Source of the DNA: Daphnia carinata
Lineage: Eukaryota
DNA: 64,000 bases
Direction of reading: 5' to 3'
Assembly: GCF_022539665.2 (NCBI RefSeq)
Contig: NC_081331.1
Coordinates: 1,054,001 to 1,118,000, forward strand
Shown here: positions 352 to 48,200 of the stretch, piece after piece
How positions within the stretch are numbered: the first letter of the stretch is position 1
How the letters are laid out: each line of letters begins with the position of its first letter
Made by a program: the position numbers and the translations under genes
The notes under the pieces: generated by a model
The model's input: the letters and a program-made list of their open reading frames with translations, nothing else
What the model was told of the DNA's origin: nothing
Database searches by the model: none

Positions 352-3846
<3,495 letters not shown>

Positions 3847-4174
3847 AAGGTAGATGATGAATTTTGTAGCATTTGGGGTTCATAAAAACTGAGATCCAGT
3901 TATTTTTACAAGGTTAACAAAACTATCTGTAAAATCGACTGGCCATCAGTTTCCATTCACTGAATAGGGGAAGACATTCCGGCTTCTTTCACCAAAATCA
4001 GTGACCGCTTATTCTAATATTAATTTTGAAAACAAGCAGTCGAGTAAAACACTTGTAATCGTGAATGAAACATGCCCATGTTGCATTGATGTAAAACACT
4101 GAAATGACAATATATGTGGTATCATTTCCTCCAGTTGAAGTTTCAACACACCGAGCTTCTCGCAAAAACTTTGG

Positions 4175-5766
4175 TTAGTTTTTCGTGAATTGTTCGGTTA
4201 GGGCAGCCAATTTCGCCATGAATTTAGCTTCTTCTTCTTTTGTTGAGCGCGTCCACGCCAATGGTAAGTGAGTTGGTACAGGACGGCGATCTGTAAAGAA
4301 AAAATTACGACGTAATTCAGAGCTGTCTTCTGTTGTTATTTCTATATCACAGCAATTTTTACTTGCTTCTAAATACCCAACATATTGCCTATCCTATCCC
4401 TTTACGTCACAAAAGTTTGCATCTCTTGAAGTCTATGCTTAATGGACTCACCCTCAAAGAACAAGCCAGATGGGAACTGTAAAGCAGCTTCTGATATAGC
4501 TAACCAGGTAGCCGTGTCAGCCCCTTGTTCAGCGGTACGAAGACGATCTTTCATTTTCTCATAAAAATCTGGCATTGAGGAACGAACTGCGGGTGTCTAA
4601 GAACGTCAAAATGTATTAATTTAAAACACTTTGATTTATTACTAAAAAAATAATTACATCAGCCCACCTATATAATAAAAAAAAAAAATTAGTCACGTGA
4701 TTTTTAAAAAATAACTGGTAAACTTTTGCAAAAATTTGACTACCCTGGATGCATCGCCGAAAAATGAATATTTGGATACTGTTTGGCATACTGTTCCATC
4801 ATTACCACCTAAACAATTGCAAAAGTAGCTACTAAACCCCATGTCAGGCGTACCACACCAAGAAATTCGCACCTGCTGCCTTTTGTTCTGAGCATATGCC
4901 ATGGTTCCATCAAATTTCTTTTCTTTTTCTAATTGCCAATCATCAACATTCAGTTTCTGTACCAGCATGCCGCCACTTGACACAATTATCACTCGAGGTT
5001 GGGTAGCTCTAGTTGAAATTGTGATTAGTATACAAAAATCTCTTATATTAATGTCTTTCGATTTTATACTTGGACAACAGAGGAATAAGGGATGTTGTTA
5101 GCAAATGGGTCCCTAAAGTATTTGTTGCAAAATTTTTTTCATTTCCATTGCTATCGATTTCTCTGTTGTTTATCATACAGCCAGCATTATTCACCTGTTA
5201 TCCAAATATGTAAGTATAACAATCTACAAGCTACTATTATTATAGCTTACTAAAACATTCAATTCTGTTCCACTCTCAACAAACCTCCTACCAAATTCAA
5301 CAACACTTTTGGAATCAGAAAGATCAAGTGGATGAATATGGACATTCTGAAAGGATATATGTTTATGATGTATGAAATTATCTTGATCTACAAAATGAAA
5401 ATAACTTACATTGTTCCCTGAAGCTTTTTGAATTTCAGACTGTGCTTCTTGTGCTGACTTTTTATTACGACATACAAGATGAATAGTTCCTCCTCTCTTG
5501 GCTATGTCTAAAGCAATACATTTACCAATGCCACTGTTGCCACCGGTAATCATATATGACTTTCCTGAACAATCAACGTTGAGATCAAGATCAGCAGGGT
5601 TAAAATTCTTACTAGCTGACTCATATCCCCCTCTAGATTGAAATTTTAAAACACAAATATGTTGTAAAATACAAACACAAAAACATCGAGGTGTTTGAAA
5701 ACATTCTTACTTGGTATAATCCCGCAATCCTCTGGCAAACCATACAGCGTTTCTATAGAACGACAT
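4175..5766 (-). CDS. DHRS12: Short-chain dehydrogenase/reductase DHRS12-like, 9 coding exons, 323 aa
   Basis: Exons 5766-5711, 5632-5410, 5346-5251, 5194-5070, 5008-4873, 4808-4744, 4667-4658, 4596-4452, 4290-4175 (972 nt). N-terminus MSFYRNAVWFARGLRDYTKGGY, Rossmann motif TGGNSGIG, NNAG, catalytic YAQNK, MHPGWADTPAVR and C-terminal THLPLAWT are typical of DHRS12. Confidence 0.93.
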
Positions 5767-6249
5767 TAAAAGACTTTTGGGGTTTTTATTGATGTGAAAG
5801 TAAATATGATTCCCACCAATTCTATGACAAATTCTAAAGAATGAGATCCCCTAGAAGATAGCAAGCATTATATAAACGAAATGTAAGCAAGACCCAGATA
5901 ACACATATCAACCTGGTTACGTAAAAAAAAAAATAACAAAAAACGCTCTTCCATCTATCGGCTGAAAGATGAATTACAGAATTTGGCTCATCGGACGATT
6001 TTGACCAGCACCAGTTATTGACAGCCCCTGAGTTTGATTAAGTTATTGGTTTTCTCGTTAAACCAGGCATTTTTAAAATAATAAAAAAGCAATTGCCTGT
6101 TAGCGCCCCTACATTCGAATTAGTTTTTTACGTTTCGTTCGGAAACTATAAAGCCAATTGAAAAACAAACTTGATTTCCGTGATTACCATTCAATTTGAA
6201 TCGAAATTATGTAATTTCAGCAAACTTTGAAATTAGCAAAAATGAAAAA

Positions 6250-6751
6250 GTGGAAGGCTATACCACATGGAAGGCCTTCCCACTTCAAAATCCGCAAAAA
6301 AATGAAAACTCCTAGAATACGATAAAAATCACGCAGAACATTCAAAATTAAACGCTGATTTCGATAAAGTGGTTTGTTATGTCGTCAAACCAGACCTGCC
6401 GTAATCGCGATTGAAAATTAATCACGATTGCGATTTCGATTAAAAATTTTAATCGGCGATCAAATTATTTTAAAATGATCGAAATCGGCGATTAAAGTGG
6501 AAAAAACTTAATTTTTAATCGCGATTATTTCACGATTATTTAGCGACATCTATGAACGGTAGATGAGACTATATGAAAGTCTACTCATAGCTTTGTCATT
6601 TTTGTAGCAGACGCTTTTTTTTAATTTTCACTTGTTTCAATTTTTTCAATTTAAACAATGGCAAGTTATTTTCTTACTGCTAGATGGCGGTCAAAAGTAA
6701 TCGGAAAAACAATCGCTAAGAAATTTAATCGCCGATCAAATTTTTTCAACA
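6250..6751. mobile_element. Left part of an older degenerate repeat/MITE-like sequence interrupted by the palindromic element
   Basis: Dense AATCGCGATT/AATCGGCGAT motif array at 6400-6740. Segment 6253-6362 has a diverged direct copy at 11870-11971. Boundaries are uncertain. Confidence 0.5.
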
Positions 6752-6757
6752 GACGAA

Positions 6758-9030
6758 TATAGCAATCCGTATATGGCAATCCGTTTTTATGGCAATCCGT
6801 TTTACACAAAAAAAAAAAAAAAAAAGCGCACTTTTTTCTTTTTTTCCGACACGTAGCCATCTACCGCTCAGACTCGTTATTACTGGCGTACGCAATTTCA
6901 GTCCATTGGATGCCATTCGCAGTTAGTTCAGTAGCGTGGATGGAGAATAACGCGTGGCTGGAGGAACAATTGAAAAATGGATAAGATAATACAACAAAAG
7001 AATAGTAAGTATAAACATTATTATATTGGTTTTCAATTATTAATTATTGTTTATTAGATCAAGTTATGAAGCTGCAGGCCCAATTATTGGAACAACACAA
7101 AATATTAGATAACAGCAAAGCTAAGGATGGTAAGGCCTGATGTATGTAATGATTCTATTTATTTGCTTTTATTCATTTGTGTTTTGTAGCTCAAATTTTG
7201 AGTCTACAAGCTCACCTAGGGGAAAAGAACAAATTGGAACAGAACAGTTTCCAAACAGTGAAGGAGGTTTTTCCAAACTCATCCCTAACTGAACATGAGG
7301 ATGAATTGGCATTAGGCGAACACAGTCAGGTACCAAAACGTTTCAAATAAGAATTCAAATTAAGTATAGAATTTTAACAAACAATTATTTATTGTTTAGT
7401 TATTCAGTCTACCACTTGACAGTGTGTTAAAGTTAAATTCTTTTAGTGCTGCACTAAAAGAATTGTTAGTAATAAGTCCATGCAGCGAAGGAAGTGAACA
7501 ATTGTGGGACCGTATTTGGGCTGAAAATGGGTGTGGTATGGAAACCGAGATATGGCACGAGTTCAACATAAAACATGGATTAGGTACTTTTCGGTTTTTT
7601 GTCTATTGAAAAAGTATTTTTAATGCTATTATTTTGCATTGACAGAATTTTAGCAGGGGATCAAGTCAACTCTGGAAGTGTTACAGGATGGAAAAGTCAG
7701 CCTACAGTTGAAAAACACTGAGTGCATTACCATTAAGGTATGAGGTAAAGTAATAGAGTATGCAAATTGTCTAATGAGAAGTACCATCTTGTGTGAATGA
7801 ATCCTGTGTAACAGCAATCCTTTATAGTTCTGTCACAGCTAGAAGCCTCAAATAATTCTGCTTCTCTTGCTAAAGAACAACTTGTCCTTTACGTTCAGAG
7901 TGTTGGTGAAGCTGGGTACTTAAATGGCCCTAAAGATGTTTCATTTCGTTGGCATTGCAGCGATGAACATCATACATGGACTCTTTAGGTATGAAAGGAA
8001 TTTTCTTGAAAATTTTTTAAATTTATGACAAAGCATTTCTCCTGCTTTTTGCCAACCATGTCTAATCTTAAAAAAAAATTTATCCACTAGGAAAGGATTT
8101 TCAGCATACTGGGAACACAACTATCAACAATGCAACATTCTAGGGGTGCTATTTTATCATTCAAGAGCCTTATACAATGATTTTCAACTGCAATTTGTAT
8201 GGCCTTTCCCAAGCTTCTGCCAGAAGTTGAATCTATGTCATGTAAGTCACATGAGCTACAATTGAGATGCTTAATGGTGTTGTTTTTCTTTTCTCAGCAT
8301 AGGTTAAAAGTAACATTGGATCTGAAAAGATTCTTGGTTGGGGCAAGACACTGAATAAATTGTAATGATTGAATGGATGACATGACATTTCTATACTTAA
8401 TTTGGATTCCCGAGACGGTATTTTATATTTAAAAAATTGAAGTGCATATCTGGGCTCCCTTCCTTTCCGTAGCCCCGTTTCCCCTTGACTCGTAATAAGC
8501 CCGTAGGGGGTCATGCCCCTACTGTACGGTATATATAAAAACAACATATACCGAGGTTTGGAGGGCTCTGGCCGGAAAGGGGACGTGGATGTCCGCTTAG
8601 TCCGATGATGTGTTCACGGAGGGCTCTGTGGCTACCCACAAATCCGAACTAAAGGTTAATCGCTCCTGTAAAAATGTTCCAAATCTTCAGCTCTTCTTCC
8701 GGCTTCTCTTAGCCAATCACCGGGTAATCTCCCCGGTGGGTCAACAAGGCAGTGTCTCCCCCTGCCTGGGTTGACGGCAACTTTTGAAAGGGCTATTGTG
8801 CCTTTTTAAAGTTGCAAAAATAATTGTAACGTGCAGAGAATTCTCAATAAATTTTTTTTTCATAAAAAATTTTTTGCAAATTTTGTTTTAAACTTCATTG
8901 TCATCATTTTCCTTCATTGTCTGTGTTCACACATTACATTTATCAATTTTTTTTTATTCAGCTTTGCACAATTCAATTTTATTGTTTTTGCCACCGTTGT
9001 ATCGTTTATCTGTAAGTATTCAATTATTAT
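6758..9030 (+). repeat. Left inverted arm of the palindromic element
   Basis: Aligns by eye end to end with the reverse complement of 9539-11809. It begins with tandem (T)ATGGCAATCCGT units at 6758-6800. Confidence 0.95.
6977..8265 (+). pseudogene. Decayed multi-exon gene of unknown family carried in the left arm (coiled-coil-like N-terminus)
   Basis: GT-AG bounded exons 6977-7004, 7058-7129, 7190-7329 and 7400-7583 splice into 141 open codons (MDKIIQQKNNQVMKLQAQLLEQHKILDNSKAKDAQILSLQAHLGEK...LWDRIWAENGCG...). Further exon-like blocks at 7646-7737, 7828-7988 and from 8091 contain stops or frameshifts. The 3' end is approximate. Confidence 0.7.
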
Positions 9031-9127
9031 TTATTACACTTTTTGAATTCATGAACTTAGACAAGGAACAACGTGTAATATCTTGATATTTTCTGAAGTA
9101 ATTTTGTATTTGTATATTGTTTTACTG

Positions 9128-9191
9128 GCATGGGAATCGATCCTCAAACATTCAGCGTGCAACGCCGATGCTCTAACATTGAGCCACGAGA
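9128..9191 (-). pseudogene. Degenerate tRNA-like unit 1 in the element spacer
   Basis: The minus strand reads TGGCTCAATGTTAGAGCA TCGGC GTTGCAC GCTGA ... GAGGATCGATTCCC. It has a D-stem GCTC/GAGC, a 5-bp anticodon stem with 7-nt loop and a degenerate B-box, but no acceptor stem. Confidence 0.55.
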
Positions 9192-9289
9192 TACATCTAG
9201 ATTTTTTATTATTGCATATCATATGTTATCGTCTAGGATGTTTATGCAGTCTTTCACAACTATATGTTTATCTTTGTATTGCTTTTATA

Positions 9290-9361
9290 ATGTCCATAGC
9301 TCTGTGGTAGAGCATTCAGCTGCGATAACTGTTACCCTGGGTTCAAACCTTACTAGATGTA
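9290..9361 (+). pseudogene. Degenerate tRNA-like unit 2 in the element spacer
   Basis: TAGCTCTGTGGTAGAGCA (A-box and D-arm) and GGGTTCAAACC (B-box) at tRNA spacing, with only weak acceptor pairing (ATGTCCA/TAGATGT). Confidence 0.6.
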
Positions 9362-9474
9362 TAAAAATCTACATCTCAATGGAGAAAATAATATGGCAGT
9401 ATTGCATTTCAGTTTTATTCAAAGTGTTAATACAAGTCCGCAAGCGACTAGAAAAAAGCCAACTTGACATCATA

Positions 9475-9540
9475 TGATTCATGGCTCATTGGTAAAGCAT
9501 CGGCGCGGAATGCCGAACATCTAGGGTTCGATCCCTGGAT
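9475..9540 (+). pseudogene. Degenerate tRNA-like unit 3 in the element spacer
   Basis: TGGCTCATTGGTAAAGCA TCGGC GCGGAAT GCCGA ... GGGTTCGATCCC. It has an A-box, a perfect 5-bp anticodon stem and a B-box, but no acceptor stem. Confidence 0.6.
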
Positions 9541-11809
9541 AATAATTGAATGCTTACAGATGAACTATGCTTACAGGAAACAATGCTTACCATTAAACGT
9601 GGCATAAACAATAAACGAGAATTGAGAAAGCTAAATAAAAAAAAGATGATAAATGTAATGTGTGAAAACAGACAGTGAAAGAAACAAAATTTGCAAAAAA
9701 ATTTTATAAAAAAAAATTTATTGACAATTCTCTGCACATTACAATTATTTTTGCAACTTTAAATAGGCACAATAGCCCTTTCAAAAGTTGCCGTCAACCC
9801 AGGCAGGGGGAGACACTGCCTTGTTGACCCACCGGGGAGATTACCCGGTGATTGGCTAAGAGAAGCCGGAAGAAGAGCTGAAGATTTGGAACATTTTTAC
9901 AGGAGCGATTAACCTTTAGTTCGGATTTGTGGGTAGCCACAGAGCCCTCCGTGAACACATCATCGGACTAAGCGGACATCCACGTCCCCTTTCCGGCCAG
10001 AGCCCTCCAAACCTCGGTATATGTTGTTTTTATATATACCGTACAGTAGGAGCATGACCCCCTACGGGCTTATTACGAGTCAAGGGGAAACGGGGCTTCA
10101 GAAAAGAAGGGAGCCCAGATATGCACTTCAATTTTTTTAATATCAAATACCGTCTGGGGAATCCGAATTAAGTATAGAAATGTCATGTCATCCATCCAAT
10201 CAATACAATTTATTCAGTGTCTTGCCCCAACCAAGAATTTTTTCAGATCCAATGTTACTATTAACCTATATTGAGAAAAGAAAAACAACACTGTTAAACA
10301 TATCAACTGTTGATCATGTAACTTACAAGACTCATAGATTCAACTTCTGGTGGAAGCTTGGGGAAGGACATACAAATTGCAGATTAACATCATTGTATAA
10401 GGCTCTTGAATGATAAACTAGCACCTGTACAATGTTGCATTGTTGATAGTTGTGTTCCCAGTACATGAAAATCCTTTCCTATTGGATAAAATTTTTTTTG
10501 GTAGATTAGACCTGGTTGGCAAAAAGGAGGAGAAATTCTTCGTCATAAATTCAAAATTATTTGAAGAAAAATCCTTTCATACCTAAAGAGTCCATGTATG
10601 ATGTTCATCTCTGCAATGGCAGCAAAATTAAAACATCTTTAGGGCCATTTAAGTACCCAGTTTCCCCAACACTCTGAACGTAAAGGACAAGTTGTTCTTT
10701 AGACAGAGAAGCAGAATTATTTGAGGTTTCTAGCTGTGACAGAACTATAAAGGATTGCTGTTGTACTGGATTTATTAACACAAGATGGTACTCTCATTAG
10801 ACAATGTGCATACTCTATTACTTTACCTCATACCTTAATGGTAATGCACTCTCAGTGTTTTTTCATCTGTAGGCTGACTCTTCCATCCTGTAACACTTCC
10901 AGACTTGATTTGATCCCCCATTAAATTCTGTGAATGCAAAATAATAGCATTAAAAATACTTTTTCAATAGACATAAAACCGAAAAGTACCTAATCCATGT
11001 TTCATATTCAACTTGTGCCATATCTTGGTTTCCGTACCACACCCATTTTCGGCCCAAATACGGTCCCACAATTGTTCACTTCCTTCACTGCATGGGCTTA
11101 TTACTAACAATTCTTTTTGTGCAGCACTAACAGAATTTAAATTTAACACACTGTCAGGTGGTAGACTGAATAACTAAACAATAAATAATTGTTTGTTAAA
11201 ATTCTATACTTATTTTGAATTCTTATTTGAAAAGTTTAGGTACCTGACTGTGTTCGCCTAATGCCAATTCATCCTTATGTTCAGTTAGGTTTGAGTTTGG
11301 AAAAACCTCCTTCACTGTTTGGAAACTGTTCCGTTCCAATTTGTTCTTTTCCCCTAGCTGAGCTTGTAGACTCAAAATTTGAGCTACAAAACACAAATGA
11401 ATAAAAGCAAATAAATAGAATCATTATGTATTAGGCCTTACCATCCTTAGCTTTGCTGTTATCTAATAATTTGTGCTGTTGCAATAATTGAGCCTGCAGG
11501 TCCATAATTTGATCTAATAAACAATAATTAATAATTCAAAACAAATATAATAATGTTTATACTTACCATCCTTTTGTTGTATTATCTTATCCATTTTTCA
11601 ATTGTTCCTCCAGCCACGCGTTATTCTCCATCCACGCTACTGAACTAACTGCGAATGGCATCCAATGGACTGAAATTGCCTACGCCAGTAATAATGAGTC
11701 TGAGCGGTAGATGGCTACGTGTCGGAAAAAAAGAAAAAAGTGCGATTTTTTATTTTTTTTCCGCCATTTTTTTTTTTATGTAAAACGGATTGCCATACGG
11801 ATTGCCATA
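9539..11809 (-). repeat. Right inverted arm of the palindromic element
   Basis: Reverse complement of 6758-9030 with scattered substitutions and indels. It ends in ACGGATTGCCATACGGATTGCCATA. Confidence 0.95.
10300..11594 (-). pseudogene. Mirror copy of the decayed multi-exon gene in the right arm
   Basis: ATG at 11594-11592 with the same splice sites. The first four exons are open (ORF 10964..11149 corresponds to 7424..7609), and later exons carry different lesions. The 3' end is approximate. Confidence 0.7.
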
Positions 11810-11815
11810 GACGAA

Positions 11816-12110
11816 TGATCGCCGATCATTTTTTTTGCGATTATCGACGGCTACCGATAATCTAAGTGAGAAGGCTATTGTCTTCCCACTTTTGTGAAAA
11901 TCCGAAAAAAAACGATATCTCTTGGAATTCGATGAAAATCACAAAATATAACCCAAATTTAACGCTGGTTCAGAAAAGGCTATTCATTTTCTTGTCAAGT
12001 TAGCCGTGTTTGAAATACACCGAATATTTGTACTGCATCGAGCTAGCACTGTAGGTACTGGCGCGCTAGCGCGGTATAATCAAAGTTGAACGCTGATTTT
12101 GATTAAGCTA
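11816..12110. mobile_element. Right part of the same older degenerate repeat
   Basis: ATCGCCGATCA at 11818-11828 repeats 6728-6738. AACGCTG(A/G)TT motifs at ~11961 and ~12089 repeat the one at ~6352. Boundaries are uncertain. Confidence 0.45.
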
Positions 12111-13298
12111 TTGTTTTTTTCTTGTACATAAGCAATTTTACCTTTCAAATTATCTGGTTCTGTATATTCGCCATACCAGCGTCAACTGGTACCCCCTGAC
12201 CAATTAGCACTTCTCGATGTTAGAGATTTTCCCGTGTTATTTGTACAAGGAATGACACATGATGCAAACAGGACGCTGCCGGCCTGTGGCCCAAGAAAAC
12301 TTAGATTTGGACATTCAGTATTCGCAGTTCACTATTCGACGATGCTTCAGCCTCGAAGAACCTGAACAGCCAAGCTGCTAAGTCGTCATTAAGTTATGCA
12401 AATATCCCTTCTTTCTTATGCAATTGGTTGACCAAATTTGTTAAATCATGCTTCTCGCCAAAACAAGAGGATTAAATCTGAATATAAGTATAGGGTGATT
12501 AAATGGTTAAACTATCTGACTTGCCAAAATCTGAGGAGTTAGAAAGCCTAGTTATAATTAGAGAATTGTAATTGTAAACTCTACCTCTGAATGGATACAC
12601 TCCAGAATTTCTTTTTAATTTAGTGTCATCAGAGACGGCGCAGATAACCACTTGCGCAGTAAGCATAAAAAAGACAACCACTAATCACAGGATCCAGCTT
12701 ACACAAAAATATTGCCAACTGAAACGTCCAAAAACATACAGATTTAAAACACGGTCGAGCCCAGTCACAAGCTCACATTCCGAGTTTCCCTCCCATCAAG
12801 CCTTTGCAACAATATGAAAACGATGCAGTTTTCAACGACATTGTTAGAATACGAGAGAGAACTGCAAGCTTCATAGGCTTTTTGAGATATACAAGAGGAA
12901 TGTTCGTAACCTTTGATTCAAACTGTAACAATTTGAAAACAAATTAGGGAGTTAGGGCAGAAAAGGGAAAAAAAAACACATGAAATATGGTTATTCATAT
13001 AAATCTCTGTTATCAAATCGTACATACTTTTGCTTTACTTCAATTAACTGTGTCTCAAATACGACGACCACACACAATTGCAAACACGATCGGAGTGCGG
13101 AAACGGTACTTCGTTGACCTAGAAACTATTAGAAAAGTTGACATCCAGTAACCCACCACATATGACCATTTCTTTAAATGACCAAGTGAAAATACGCATG
13201 GCGAATAATAACACAAGTATTCAAATGAATGCCGATTTCAACAGAAAATCACCAATGACCGCCAAATTTCGAATTACTATAGAAAAGATATTAAATGA

Positions 13299-45245: not shown

Positions 45246-48200
45246 ATGAAGCCACTACAGCCGCTTAGCACCGTCTTCCTTCTTATTGTGTCCATCGTCA
45301 CGTTCGCCTCGTCTGCCCTTCGTAAGTTTAAACTAAGATATGATTTCCTTCAACGTTTGAATAGCCATGACATTCTTCATTCTATATAGTTAAGCAGACT
45401 CGATTCTATCTTAAATGGTCCTTGCTTCGGGCTTGTGTGTATATCGTTAAGAGTAACGATATTATTCTGACCCATTTCCAGCATCCGTTGTTTACATGTC
45501 AAGTTTTTTTGCCCCTTTTTTTTGTGTTCATCACTGGGCAAATAGAGCAGTGGCTCGGTGATGTATTCACATAAAAATGGTTTTGGGCGGAGCAAATGGT
45601 CGACAGAAGATGTTACCTCGAATATGATGGATGTAACGCGTGAGCTATATATGCCTAGCTGCTGATGCTCTTTGAATTCATGACTTCTTTCTTAGTTCTT
45701 TTTGTTGAATACGTCCCCTTCTCTTGCCGAGGGATTGCGTGTGCCCGATTGACGCGGAATAACGCCGACTTAATGTTGCGGAAAGAAGGGAGAAAAAAAA
45801 AACCCAATTCGGAATAATAGTCGTCATTTGCGGCTGTTGCTGGATGAAGAGCATTTCATTTCAAGCGAGAAACGGCTTTTTCTTTATTTATATACACAGT
45901 GAAAAAAAAAAAAAATGTTTATATAGAACAAGGCGAAAAAGGCGGACGGCATCACGCACAGTAGCTAAAAGGACATGTACATCCACAAAAAAAAAGGGGG
46001 GAATGAGTTACATGAATAACAGCCGAAGAAACCATGCATCTTGAGAGGCAAGCAGCAATGAAGAACGCAGTGGGTTGGCAACGTTTCAAGAAATGTCGTT
46101 GTTGTTTCTTGCTCGTGTCGCGGAGCATTGACTGGATGCAGGCGGCTGTATCAGGACACGGCCGCATTTTTTTTTTTAAGGGCGGCTGTATAGAACGGCC
46201 TCACTTCTCGTAACAACCCAAGTTCAGCACGATAAAGCAATCCTTCTTTCAAACATATATACTACGCTATAGTGTACATATATATATCCTGTCTGCGGTT
46301 TAAGCGATGACAAGGTTAACGAGGGGCAATTTTTTTTCTTTGCGGTAGTCAGTTGTTTGTGAGGACGTCAAAAGTAGGAAAAAAAAAAAAGAAAAGGCAA
46401 TGAGTTTTCTTTTTAGATCGTCCGTATCGCGGTTTCTGGTTGGTTTTCAAAGTGAATTAGGTGAATTTGGATCTGAAACAACGCAAAGCGGGCAGCTCAG
46501 ACATTTAACAAGGAAAACAATTTTCTGTACATTGTCAAACTATTTTCCTATTCGCCGAATCAATTTCCACTGTACCTTCTGTACGTATGGTGACCACTCC
46601 ATCAAATTGGTGCAGTACCCAGAACATCTCGATTGTGATGCAATGGTTTATTACAAGGCTGCTTTAAAATGTCATTTTCCACTTTTATACGTAAGGAGAA
46701 ATGCTCTTTCTTTTCCTGCAGTGCATCGTTCGTAGCATCAGCAATGGTATACGTAGACAACTAATCCGATTACAGGCAAACGGTTATACTTCAAAAATAA
46801 AAGCAATTCACCGTCCTTGGCTTTAAAAAAATGAAAACAAATGGATGTAATGGCCATGAAGTGCATTAATAATTGTTCGCACACACATTCAGCAAGAGGC
46901 TAAGTTTAAATTTCTGTTGGAAAGTCATCAAATATATACGGGAAGGGATACGTGAACATTTCGTTCTACAGAAGACGTATAGAATGATGCAACATGAGCC
47001 TTGTCCTAAACACTTTAGGGTCTTCGCGTCCTTCACGTTGCTGGGAAAGAAAAACCAATCGTCCAGCGATAGAATGGTCTATATAGCTAAAGAGAATTTG
47101 ATTGGGTTGCCATAGTCTTGTTTTGACAATACCCTCCTAACAAGAAAACCCACCCAACGTTGTGTGCACAAAATAAGAGGGGCATTCTTCTATACGATTA
47201 GACTCTGTTGTATTTCGCGATGTGTTGGAACTGTTATCGCTATTTTCTCCGGCTATCGTTCTTTTCTTATACATAGAAATATATAGAACACCCTTATCGA
47301 CACATACAATTGAAAGCTAGAGATTGGCTAACAGATTCATTTGGAAAAAAAAACAAAAACGTTTTTAGATGAAAAAGAAAATGAAGTGAGCATCGCTCCC
47401 CTTGCACTCACAGCCGAGGATTATGCGTCGAGTATACAGCGTCCAGGCGATGACGATGGAGGTGGTACTAGTCGGCACAGTTTGACCGATGCAGCAGCCA
47501 TTAATTTAGCGGAGCGATCGCCGCGCTTCGAGGATCCATCCGGACACGCCAATGTCACCGTCCAGTTGGGCGGCACCGCTTTCCTCAACTGCAGAGTCCT
47601 GGATCTTCAGGATAAGACGGTAATATTCAGCATGTATTTATATAGCTGTGATTATTACGATTAGCTTTTGTTCTATAATTGGTCGACGTTTGCAGCAAGT
47701 GTCGTGGGTGCGACGTCACGAACAAGAATTGCATTTGCTTACAGTCGGCATGCAAACGTACAGCACGGACTCGCGGTTCTCGCTCCATTTTCAGCATCCC
47801 AACGACTGGCGGCTGCAGATCAAGTTCGCCCGTCCTCGCGATGAGGGCACCTACGAGTGCCAGGTTTCCATCCATCCACCTCGCATCTACACTGTTCGAC
47901 TCATCGTAGCAGGTATCTTATCATTTCACTTATCATTTTTTTTTTTTACATATAGCTATGGTCTGTGTGTTTAGCAGCACGCTTCCTTTACTTAACTGGT
48001 AACCTCTTGCTAACTGTTGACTGGGCACGTTATAGAAACGTTGTTCGAGCCGTACGCCTCATGTCGCCATAGTGACTTTGCACACGGCAGCAGCAGAGTC
48101 CAACTTATTTTCATGTAACCTAAAAATTTCAGTCACGCATACCGTCTTAAAAGTCGAAATGCAATAAGGTCGAACTAATGCCTTGTAAAAGCGGCGTGTT

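What the first reader, a model, noticed from the sequence alone, without database searches (positions are those of the whole stretch)
6752..11815. 5-kb palindromic transposon with IS3EU-type ends built from two copies of the same half
Seen: arms of 2273 and 2271 nt around a ~508-nt spacer, termini TAT...ATA, and a perfect 6-bp flanking duplication GACGAA. It can also be read as an 8-bp AGACGAAT duplication with the element one base shorter at each end. Known (from memory): TAY..RTA termini with a 6-bp TSD define the little-studied eukaryotic IS3EU superfamily, whose autonomous members encode a DDE transposase plus a second protein. Inference: this is a non-autonomous derivative in which the non-transposase half was duplicated head-to-head, so about 90% of the element is inverted repeat. 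The arms have visibly diverged while the TSD is intact, so the palindrome probably moved as a unit long after it formed.
Basis: partly seen in the sequence, partly recalled or inferred. Interest (0 to 1): 0.85.

Follow-up and report, generated by a model that had tools for sequence, protein, structure and literature searches.

The report
Palindromic IS3EU-like foldback transposon, Daphnia
This is a real 5.06-kb insertion of jumping DNA built as a near-mirror image in what is probably a Daphnia (water flea) genome; its ends likely place it in the little-studied IS3EU group, and each arm carries a short spliced gene that is probably a leftover of the transposon's own genes, so it is a tidy variant of a known kind and not a new class.

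Summary
Window 6758-11809 is a 5,052-bp palindrome: arms 6758-9030 and 9539-11809, 94.3% alike, around a 508-bp spacer. It is flanked by GACGAA, or equally by AGACGAAT. One public-run contig joins the two flanks with a single AGACGAAT, so the whole palindrome is one insertion.

The sequence alone cannot separate a 6-bp from an 8-bp duplication. I favour 6 bp with TAT..ATA ends, about 0.7. The right end matches the published IS3EU signature TAYGG..CCRTA. Two contigs from other copies end in ..GCCATA before unrelated DNA. An arm exon is homologous to a Daphnia magna protein that continues into a helix-turn-helix region resembling the N-termini of integrase-core proteins.

New here:
- Each arm carries a five-exon gene reading inward, and contigs lacking its introns exist.
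- Its 143- or 162-aa product matches 86 "uncharacterized" Daphnia carinata protein sequences on at least nine scaffolds.
- The arms hold no DNA-binding or catalytic part, and the open reading frame (ORF) drifts neutrally (pN/pS 0.79).
- The two arms fall in different subfamilies. Their divergence is therefore inherited, not decay in place.

Verdict: a non-autonomous foldback transposon, a new variant of a known kind, of moderate interest.

The parts
6752..6757 (.). Left target-site duplication GACGAA (or 6751-6758 AGACGAAT in the 8-bp reading)
   Evidence: The empty-site joint 6750->11809 has 8 shared letters.
6758..9030 (+). Left arm, 2,273 bp counting the disputed first T
   Evidence: 94.3% identity to the reverse complement of the right arm.
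6758..6800 (+). Left end array: three copies of TAT(A/G)GCAATCCG. Likely transposase binding sites (inferred).
   Evidence: 5 matches against 0.36 expected; TRF 6757-6800 and 6772-6803.
6845..6976 (+). Best-conserved stretch of the arm, upstream of the ATG. Presumed promoter and 5' UTR (inferred).
   Evidence: 2 mismatches in 132 (98.5%), against 94.3% overall.
6977..7653 (+). Left-arm gene coding part, 143 aa. Exons 6977-7004, 7058-7129, 7190-7329, 7400-7583, 7646-7653 (stop included). All introns are GT..AG.
   Evidence: frame kept across 4 introns. (joints and loose ends of contigs lacking the introns). (D. carinata proteins of 143 aa match end to end).
7989..8090 (+). Fifth intron (102 nt, GT..AG), downstream of the stop codon
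   Evidence: joint 7985->8088 (cut +3), one contig at depth 12.6.
9031..9538 (.). Unique 508-bp spacer, of low depth in the public run
   Evidence: (no significant internal symmetry). (depth 13.7-149).
9539..11809 (-). Right arm, 2,271 bp counting the disputed last A
10863..11594 (-). Right-arm gene coding part, 162 aa. Exons 11594-11567, 11513-11442, 11383-11244, 11173-10990, 10927-10863 (stop included).
   Evidence: (P0006 matches exon by exon at 94-100%). (joints 10927->10990 and 11383->11442 with CT..AC ends).
11785..11809 (-). Right end array: two copies of TATGGCAATCCG, read on the minus strand
   Evidence: (TRF 11785-11809, period 12, 100% matches).
11810..11815 (.). Right target-site duplication GACGAA (or 11809-11816 in the 8-bp reading)

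Best explanation
Window 6758-11809 is one inserted, gene-poor foldback DNA transposon that most likely belongs to the IS3EU/GingerRoot group and would be moved in trans by an integrase-like transposase encoded elsewhere in the genome.

Shown:
- A 5,052-bp palindrome with 94.3% arms lies between exact direct repeats.
- A contig with the uninterrupted target exists.
- Each tip carries 2-3 tandem copies of TATGGCAATCCG.
- Each arm carries, reading inward, a five-exon gene. Intron-less contigs of it exist. Its 143- or 162-aa product belongs to a family of 86 distinct Daphnia carinata protein sequences spread over at least nine scaffolds.
- The arms hold no HTH or DDE coding sequence.
- The two arm genes differ at a near-neutral ratio and fall in two different family subtypes.

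Inferred:
- The duplication is 6 bp (GACGAA) and the ends are TAT..ATA.
- The end repeats are the transposase binding sites.
- The arm gene is a 5' remnant of the autonomous element's genes, since its exon 4 matches the start of a D. magna protein with an integrase-type HTH region. It has no function of its own.
- This copy is a hybrid of two subfamilies. It would have formed by repair from, or recombination with, another copy before or during the move that placed it here.
- Transcripts running through the centre would fold into a long hairpin and could feed silencing.
For: Insertion as a unit:
- The joint 6750->11809 skips 5,058 bases with 8 shared letters, in one contig at depth 91.
- Exact flanking repeats.

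Family and mobility:
- All 13 of 13 hits to exon 4 are D. carinata proteins of 114-162 aa at 77-90% identity, standing for 86 member sequences.
- Clusters of 30 and 39 members lie on scaffolds of 7.9-14.4 Mb.
- 815 contigs of run X1 lie on the element in all identity classes, 344/248/140/83.

IS3EU reading:
- Published IS3EU ends are 'always TA..TA' and the TSD is 'usually 6 bp' (PMC10045372, passages).
- GingerRoot has 6 bp in 72 of 77 elements, 7 bp in 5 and 8 bp in 1 (PMC6839031, section 18; the paper's own counts overlap).
- Fungal IS3EU ends are TAYGG..CCRTA (PMC12730594, section 3.1.3). The right end here reads TATGG.
- Two contigs from other copies match up to ..CGGATTGCCATA and then run into unrelated DNA.
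- IS3EU is listed at 0.05% of the D. pulex assembly (PMC8594854, Table 1).
- A profile of the arm protein hits D. magna P0044 at E 7.5e-8 over exon 4. Residues 55-164 of P0044 resemble the N-termini of clusters rich in PF24764 rva_4 integrase-core proteins (feature score 0.93; TM 0.83/0.70).

Non-autonomy:
- No Pfam family reaches its curated cut-off in 16 element ORFs; the best E-value is 0.046.
- tblastn finds only homologues of exons 2-4 in the arms.

Splicing:
- Four GT..AG introns keep the frame.
- Intron-less joints and loose ends are seen.
- The protein models are identical in structure.

Neutral drift:
- 6 synonymous and 21 non-synonymous differences, pN/pS 0.79.

Hybrid arms:
- 8 of the 19 amino-acid differences follow family subtypes.
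- In the tree the right arm sits in an 18-row clade and the left arm in a 26-row clade, split support 87/99.
Against: - 6-bp versus 8-bp TSD is not resolved by this copy. The empty site fits both.
- The left tip reads TATAG, one mismatch to TAYGG.
- Only two contigs speak for the CCATA end. A third ends at 11801 in a way I cannot read.
- No DDE transposase was linked. Searches from P0044 found no longer relative (0 of 754 candidates) and only D. magna and unnamed fragments.
- The step from P0044 to rva_4, and from rva_4 to IS3EU, rests on an alignment-free look-alike search and on my recall.
- Run X1 is labelled 'DNA?'. If it truly is DNA, the intron-less contigs would be processed copies, not RNA.
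- The tree's bootstrap had not settled, and most inner forks are unsupported.
- That other loci have two arms of the same subtype is read only from consecutive gene numbers.
Confidence: 0.7

Rival explanations
1. It is a foldback derivative of a superfamily that makes 8-bp duplications (hAT, P, or an undescribed group). The TSD would be AGACGAAT and the ends AT..AT.
For: The direct repeat is exact over 8 bases, and the empty-site joint shares 8 letters. The coincidence needed for this reading is the same size as the one needed for the 6-bp reading (my arithmetic, about 0.09 each).
Against: - Ends ATAGC/ATGGC do not fit the hAT YARNG or the P-element CATG tips (both recalled).
- No hAT, P or MULE domain was found in 16 element ORFs, nor in the D. 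magna and D. sinensis relatives of the arm gene.
- Two other-copy contigs carry the extra A (..GCCATA).
- The 12-nt unit at each inner copy also starts with T.
- The one protein lead points to an integrase-type HTH.
- GingerRoot itself gives an 8-bp TSD in 1 of 77 elements, so 8 bp here would not even exclude IS3EU.
Confidence: 0.17
2. Two separate half-elements of different subfamilies landed or were joined head to head at this site. The palindrome never moved as a unit.
For: The arms belong to two subtypes. The spacer is unique and of low depth.
Against: - A single exact duplication flanks the whole 5,052 bp, and one contig restores the target with one copy of it.
- The arms stop at the same homologous point (9030 and 9539) and differ in length by 2 bases.
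- Paired identical genes under consecutive gene numbers in D. carinata suggest that palindromic copies are the rule (inference).
Confidence: 0.06
3. It is not mobile DNA: a local inverted duplication, or an assembly artefact that mirrors one arm.
For: No read spanning both arms could be examined. No contig of X1 spans the stretch.
Against: - The arms differ at 127 of 2,222 aligned positions plus indels, so they are not a mirrored copy.
- There are exact TSDs, an empty-site contig, end-specific tandem motifs, and a dispersed family of 86 protein sequences on at least 9 scaffolds.
Confidence: 0.03

Closest known systems
IS3EU / GingerRoot superfamily of eukaryotic DNA transposons (Repbase IS3EU; Kojima and Bao 2023, PMC10045372, passages and section 3.3 read; Cerbin et al. 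2019, PMC6839031, sections 15, 18, 21 read; Kojima 2025, PMC12730594, passages read)
   Same: - TA..TA ends and a 6-bp duplication are available as an exact reading.
- The right tip TATGG fits TAYGG..CCRTA.
- The superfamily is reported in Daphnia pulex repeat tables (PMC8594854, Table 1).
- An arm exon is homologous to a protein whose next part looks like the HTH of integrase-core proteins.
   Different: - There is no transposase in the element.
- About 90% of the element is inverted repeat, against TIRs of 100-150 bp in GingerRoot and over 30 bp in fungal IS3EU.
- The left tip reads TATAG.
- The TSD could be 8 bp.
- One search of the paper library for 'IS3EU' together with 'foldback' gave a single paper; only its listing was seen and it was not opened, so a description of palindromic IS3EU members there is not excluded.
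Foldback-type transposons
   Same: Long inverted arms make up nearly the whole element. There are short tandem motifs at the tips, no transposase in most copies, and mobilisation in trans.
   Different: Those families belong to other superfamilies (MULE-related, P, and Tc4 with TNA targets; recalled). Their arms are built largely of tandem repeats. Here the arms are unique sequence that carries a spliced gene.
Palindromic IS3EU-type foldbacks noted earlier in this scan in other genomes (e1-9570859, e1-9944295, e1-9364906, e1-9058212, e1-9025964, e1-9322762)
   Same: They are 2-4.7-kb near-perfect palindromes with TATGG..CCATA-type ends and 6-bp duplications, described as gene-less.
   Different: - No sequence likeness to this element (0 windows).
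- This one has 94% arms, not near-identical ones.
- Its arms come from two subfamilies.
- Each arm carries an annotated, spliced short gene.
- Those notes are unchecked AI notes.

Membership tests
IS3EU / GingerRoot | Integrase-like DDE transposase of the IS3EU/GingerRoot clade, in the element or in an autonomous partner with the same ends | not testable with these tools
   - None in the element, and none in 100 other window ORFs of 85 aa or more.
- No source genome is held.
- Lead only: D. magna P0044 shares exon 4 (E 7.5e-8), and its residues 55-164 resemble the N-termini of rva_4 integrase-core clusters.
- No full-length relative was found.
IS3EU / GingerRoot | Termini 5'-TA..TA-3' (PMC10045372; PMC6839031) | tested here: met
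   TAT..ATA if the end bases 6758 and 11809 belong to the element. Two contigs of other copies end ..GCCATA before unrelated DNA, and the tandem array runs through 11809. The result depends on the same one-base ambiguity as the TSD.
IS3EU / GingerRoot | 6-bp target-site duplication (usual; 7-8 bp occur in GingerRoot) | tested here: inconclusive
   GACGAA (6 bp) and AGACGAAT (8 bp) are both exact. The empty site fits both. Only one copy lies in the window.
IS3EU / GingerRoot | End signature TAYGG..CCRTA (fungal families, PMC12730594) | tested here: inconclusive
   The right end ..CCATA fits. The left end TATAG has one mismatch, while the two inner left copies read TATGG.
Foldback-type (structural class) | Inverted arms make up most of the element, with repeated motifs at the tips | tested here: met
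   Arms of 2,273 and 2,271 bp out of 5,052 bp (90%). There are 3 and 2 tandem 12-nt motifs at the tips.
Non-autonomous DNA transposon | Flanking TSD, empty site, multiple dispersed copies, no transposase of its own | tested here: met
   TSD. Empty-site contig. 86 related protein sequences on at least 9 D. carinata scaffolds. No transposase domain.
hAT | 8-bp TSD, YARNG tips, transposase with hAT dimerisation domain | tested here: not met
   An 8-bp reading is possible, but the tips would be ATAGC/ATGGC (the YARNG rule is recalled). No hAT domain was found in the element ORFs or in relatives of the arm gene.

The most novel reading that the evidence does not exclude
IS3EU palindromes are not old accidents that then spread. 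They are made anew when the transposase, or the repair that follows it, pairs two like ends taken from different copies. This element, with one arm from the young homogeneous subfamily and one from the older heterogeneous one under a single target duplication, would be a caught example. If so, the superfamily would need only one kind of end to move, and foldback formation would be a regular by-product of its chemistry.
Probability: 0.15. Interest if true: 0.6.

Novelty: new variant of a known kind. Interest (0 to 1): 0.4.

Why it matters
IS3EU/GingerRoot is among the least studied cut-and-paste superfamilies. One search of the paper library held here for 'IS3EU' together with 'foldback' returned a single paper, which I saw only as a listing and did not open. 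So I know of no printed description of palindromic members, but that one unread paper leaves it open.

A Daphnia family of this shape matters for three reasons:
- It explains about 86 "uncharacterized protein" gene models in the D. carinata annotation as transposon remnants.
- It offers a natural long-hairpin RNA source in a model crustacean.
- Its mixed arms offer a handle on how foldback elements arise.

The class is known, and similar cases have already been noted in other genomes.

Tried and rejected
- CENSOR and Dfam are not available here.
- A metagenome scan with the 18-nt end motif returned 33 loci. blastn showed no more than 22-27 matching bases, so these are chance hits or unrelated DNA.
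- A viral-contig scan with the arm-protein alignment matched 25 pattern stretches, none confirmed.
- Earlier-findings look-ups by place, by sequence and by relatives returned nothing.
- Pfam on 16 element ORFs and on 9 family or relative proteins: nothing reaching a curated cut-off.
- ARAGORN and Rfam found nothing on the element. I dropped an impression of tRNA-like pieces in the spacer.
- An Atlas search with the 162-aa arm-type protein P0006 gave a best score of 0.77, below use.
- Sequencing runs: 2 listed, no RNA holder listed. X2 laid nothing.
- I first read the depth of 2,000-8,000 on the arms as copy number. I dropped this because X1 may be RNA and the tool warns that depth is not copy number.
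- I first suspected a hAT dimerisation motif in exon 4. Pfam did not support it.
- P0048, a 485-aa repeat protein at E 2.4e-5, was not followed up. It matches in 6 stretches over the coiled-coil part only.
- P0052, a 283-aa D. magna model, added nothing readable.


Full report
**1. The observation**

The repeat finder on 6000-12600 gives a chain of collinear inverted blocks running from the tips (6788-6818 / 11767-11797) to the inner ends (9001-9030 / 9539-9568). A global alignment of 6759-9030 with the reverse complement of 9539-11808 has 2,222 aligned bases, 127 mismatches (94.3%) and about 20 small indels. The spacer 9031-9538 is 508 bp. Its best internal inverted match scores 34, below the best of 200 shuffles at 40.

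The junctions read ..caac A GACGAA T ATAGCAATCCG.. and ..CGGATTGCCAT A GACGAA T gatcgcc...
- a 6-bp GACGAA duplication with TAT..ATA ends;
- an 8-bp AGACGAAT duplication with AT..AT ends.

The tips carry a 12-nt unit, TATGGCAATCCG, three times on the left (the outermost copy reads TATAG) and twice on the right. With up to one mismatch it occurs 5 times in the window, all at the tips. Shuffles give 0.36 on average, and 0 of 100 reach 5. No second copy of the element lies in the 64-kb window.

**2. It is an insertion**

No genome is held for this window. One public run (X1, Logan contigs, kind guessed as 'DNA?') holds 30% of the stretch's sampled words. A second run of the same sample laid nothing.

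Of X1's 571,527 contigs, 815 lie on 6300-12300. One contig (depth 91, 27 letters on its shorter side) joins 6750 directly to 11809, skipping 5,058 bases with 8 letters shared by both sides. That is the uninterrupted target with a single AGACGAAT. It may be an allele without the insertion or a paralogue. The flanks are themselves repeated: a contig of depth 300 covers 11809-11849, and 6332-6369 resembles 11942-11979 and 12070-12107. Either way, both arms and the spacer went in as one piece. The empty site has the same sequence under the 6-bp and the 8-bp reading, so it cannot decide between them.

**3. The arms carry a spliced gene**

One search showed joints with GT..AG ends in the left arm and CT..AC ends in the right arm. 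It also showed loose ends that continue in the next exon; for example, after 7329 three contigs go on with the first ten bases of 7400.

With introns at 7005-7057, 7130-7189, 7330-7399 and 7584-7645, all GT..AG, the frame stays open from the ATG at 6977 for 143 codons. The same structure on the minus strand of the right arm, with the ATG at 11594, gives 162 codons. A fifth intron (7989-8090) lies behind the stop codon.

A search with exon 4 (7400-7582) among longer proteins gave 13 hits among 28 candidates. All 13 are 'uncharacterized protein LOC...' of Daphnia carinata, 114-162 aa, 77-90% identical, without Pfam domains, and they stand for 86 member sequences. Their sequences match my spliced models from first to last residue, including the two alternative ends.

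Two clusters of 30 and 39 members lie on scaffolds of 7.9 to 14.4 Mb. Together, that makes at least nine different scaffolds. The right-arm product is 157/162 identical to P0015. The left-arm product is 112/119 identical to P0037. The window therefore probably comes from D. carinata or a close relative (inference), and the element belongs to a dispersed multi-copy family.

Because X1's kind is only guessed, the intron-less contigs mean one of two things: X1 is an RNA run, or processed copies exist. I favour the first, because the annotated gene models have the same introns.

**4. What the arm gene is**

Pfam finds nothing in 16 element ORFs or in the family proteins. A profile of the 13 proteins (alignment A1) was searched against 1.84 billion representatives and gave 10 hits at E up to 0.001:
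- Two are the family itself.
- P0048, a 485-aa repeat protein, matches only the coiled-coil part and was not followed.
- The other seven are from D. magna, D. sinensis and unnamed Logan contigs.

The seven fall into two groups. P0044, P0045, P0046 and P0050 match profile positions 75-126, which is exon 4. P0043, P0047 and P0049 match positions 28-77, which is exons 2-3, and then continue as a different protein.

P0044 (D. magna, 164 aa) continues after the exon-4 homology into a region that the ESM Atlas places beside the N-termini of eukaryotic clusters rich in PF24764 rva_4 'integrase core' and PF27079 HTH domains. The feature score is 0.93. Structure TM is 0.83/0.70 to the first cluster and 0.60-0.73 to rva_4 clusters. 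That is a lead, not an alignment, and my equation of rva_4 proteins with IS3EU transposases is recalled, not tested.

Searches from P0044 found no longer relative (0 of 754 candidates). They found only D. magna and unnamed fragments of similar length. tblastn of these relatives against the window finds only the homologues of exons 2-4 in both arms. Nothing of the HTH part, or of the second protein's body, is present.

The arm gene is therefore best read as a 5' remnant, perhaps a fusion, of the autonomous element's genes. It is not simply the non-transposase half.

Between the two arms the 429 coding bases differ at 27 sites: 6 synonymous and 21 non-synonymous, pN/pS 0.79. Introns differ at 10 of 243 sites. 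This gives no sign of purifying selection.

**5. The arms are of two kinds**

Of the 19 amino-acid differences between the arm products:
- 8 (positions 14, 21, 65, 91, 99, 130, 134, 137) follow a split that runs through the D. carinata family;
- about 8 are private, or nearly so, to the left arm;
- about 3 are private, or nearly so, to the right arm.

I built a tree of all 42 family proteins held plus the two arms, 44 rows with none left out. It puts the right arm in a homogeneous 18-row clade of the 162/150-aa type and the left arm in a heterogeneous 26-row clade of the 143/131-aa type. The split has support 87/99, but the bootstrap had not settled and most inner forks are open.

In the cluster listing, identical proteins carry consecutive gene numbers three times (..692407/8..686766/7..689229/30), each pair within one subtype. 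I read these as the two arms of palindromes whose arms are alike. This is an inference from numbering, and only 15 of 30 and 15 of 39 members were listed.

Arm identity is also mosaic:

| Stretch | Identity |
|---|---|
| 6845-6976 | 98.5% |
| exons | 93.6% |
| 7646-8400 | 92.0% |
| 8401-8860 | 97.6% |

So the 5.7% divergence is largely inherited subfamily difference, not decay at this site. At about 3% change per arm, 12-16 bases stay intact roughly two times in three (my arithmetic).

**6. Which superfamily**

Each TSD reading needs the same two-base coincidence, about 0.09 in this AT-rich DNA, so the copy itself is neutral between them. Four outside points favour 6 bp with TA..TA ends:
[quoted passage not shown] GingerRoot has TA..TA in 72 of 77 elements and mostly 6-bp TSDs (PMC6839031). 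Fungal IS3EU end with TAYGG..CCRTA (PMC12730594). The right tip here is TATGG and the left is TATAG.
- (b) On 11720-11850, two X1 contigs from other copies match through ..CGGATTGCCATA (to 11797) and then run into unrelated sequence. This is what a copy with a single end unit ending in ..CCATA would give. A third contig ends at 11801 and I cannot interpret it (36 contigs laid).
- (c) The protein lead points to an integrase-type enzyme, not to hAT, P or MULE.
- (d) IS3EU is listed for D. pulex at 0.05% of the assembly (PMC8594854, Table 1).

I put IS3EU membership at about 0.7 and an 8-bp superfamily at about 0.17.

**7. How it most likely works**

Shown: the structure, the insertion as a unit, the dispersed family, the spliced gene, and the lack of any enzyme.

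Inferred:
- An integrase-like transposase made elsewhere binds the TATGGCAATCCG units at both tips. None is in this window: 100 further ORFs of 85 aa or more show only helicase, short-chain dehydrogenase, immunoglobulin and a weak CENP-N match.
- The transposase cuts out the element and inserts it with a 6-bp stagger.
- Because both ends are the same end, only one kind of end is needed.
- The short protein lacks DNA-binding and catalytic parts and drifts neutrally, so I take it as a by-product.
- Transcripts that cross the centre would fold into a hairpin with a stem of about 2.2 kb and could feed RNA silencing. This was not tested.
- The hybrid arms suggest repair from, or recombination with, a copy of the other subfamily. 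I could not test this.

**8. Verdict**

Its class, foldback-shaped and IS3EU-like, is known, and similar cases in other genomes are already in this scan's notes (unchecked). Three things are new here: the Daphnia family, the spliced arm gene that accounts for dozens of 'uncharacterized' gene models, and the mixed arms.

Open points:
- the TSD length;
- the autonomous partner;
- the nature of run X1;
- whether long reads span the palindrome.

Supplements of the three IS3EU papers were not read. They may hold end sequences or transposase sets that bear on points 4 and 6.

Noticed in passing
window 6250-6757 and 11816-12110: The DNA on both sides of the insertion is itself repeated. 6332-6369 resembles 11942-11979 (63%) and 12070-12107 (79%). 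A contig of depth 300 covers 11809-11849, and a contig joins 6364 to 11982. The element seems to have landed in a degenerate repeat rich in AATCGCCGATCA-like words.
   Followed up: partly
window 7351-7371 / 8389-8409 and 10159-10179 / 11202-11222: A 21-nt inverted repeat lies inside each arm (20 of 21 complementary in the left arm), about 1 kb apart. It brackets exon 4 and everything up to the presumed transcript end. That is the part homologous to D. magna P0044, whereas exons 2-3 match another protein. It may mark a module boundary or an old nested element. No TSD is visible.
   Followed up: no
window 6845-6976 and 8401-8860: Two stretches of the arms are 98.5% and 97.6% alike, while the gene body between them is 92-94% alike. 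This mosaic could mean partial arm-to-arm conversion or constraint on the region upstream of the ATG.
   Followed up: partly
window 4696-5706 (minus strand): Exons of a short-chain dehydrogenase gene (adh_short, E 2.9e-8). The element lies about 1 kb beyond the exon holding the dinucleotide-binding motif, that is, in the gene's upstream region.
   Followed up: no
window 1320-2085 (plus strand): Exons of a DEAH-box RNA helicase. Pfam gives Helicase_C at E 3.8e-5. The sequence looks like DHX15/Prp43 by eye (recalled).
   Followed up: no
window 47624-47971 (plus strand): An exon with an immunoglobulin V-set/I-set domain (E 3.8e-7). The long stretch from 13 to 64 kb has very few open frames with any Pfam match.
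   Followed up: no
proteins P0043, P0047 (Daphnia magna): These proteins share the coiled-coil exons 2-3 of the arm gene and then continue as an unrelated body of about 100-280 aa with no Pfam match. This could be the second gene of the autonomous element family in D. magna.
   Followed up: partly
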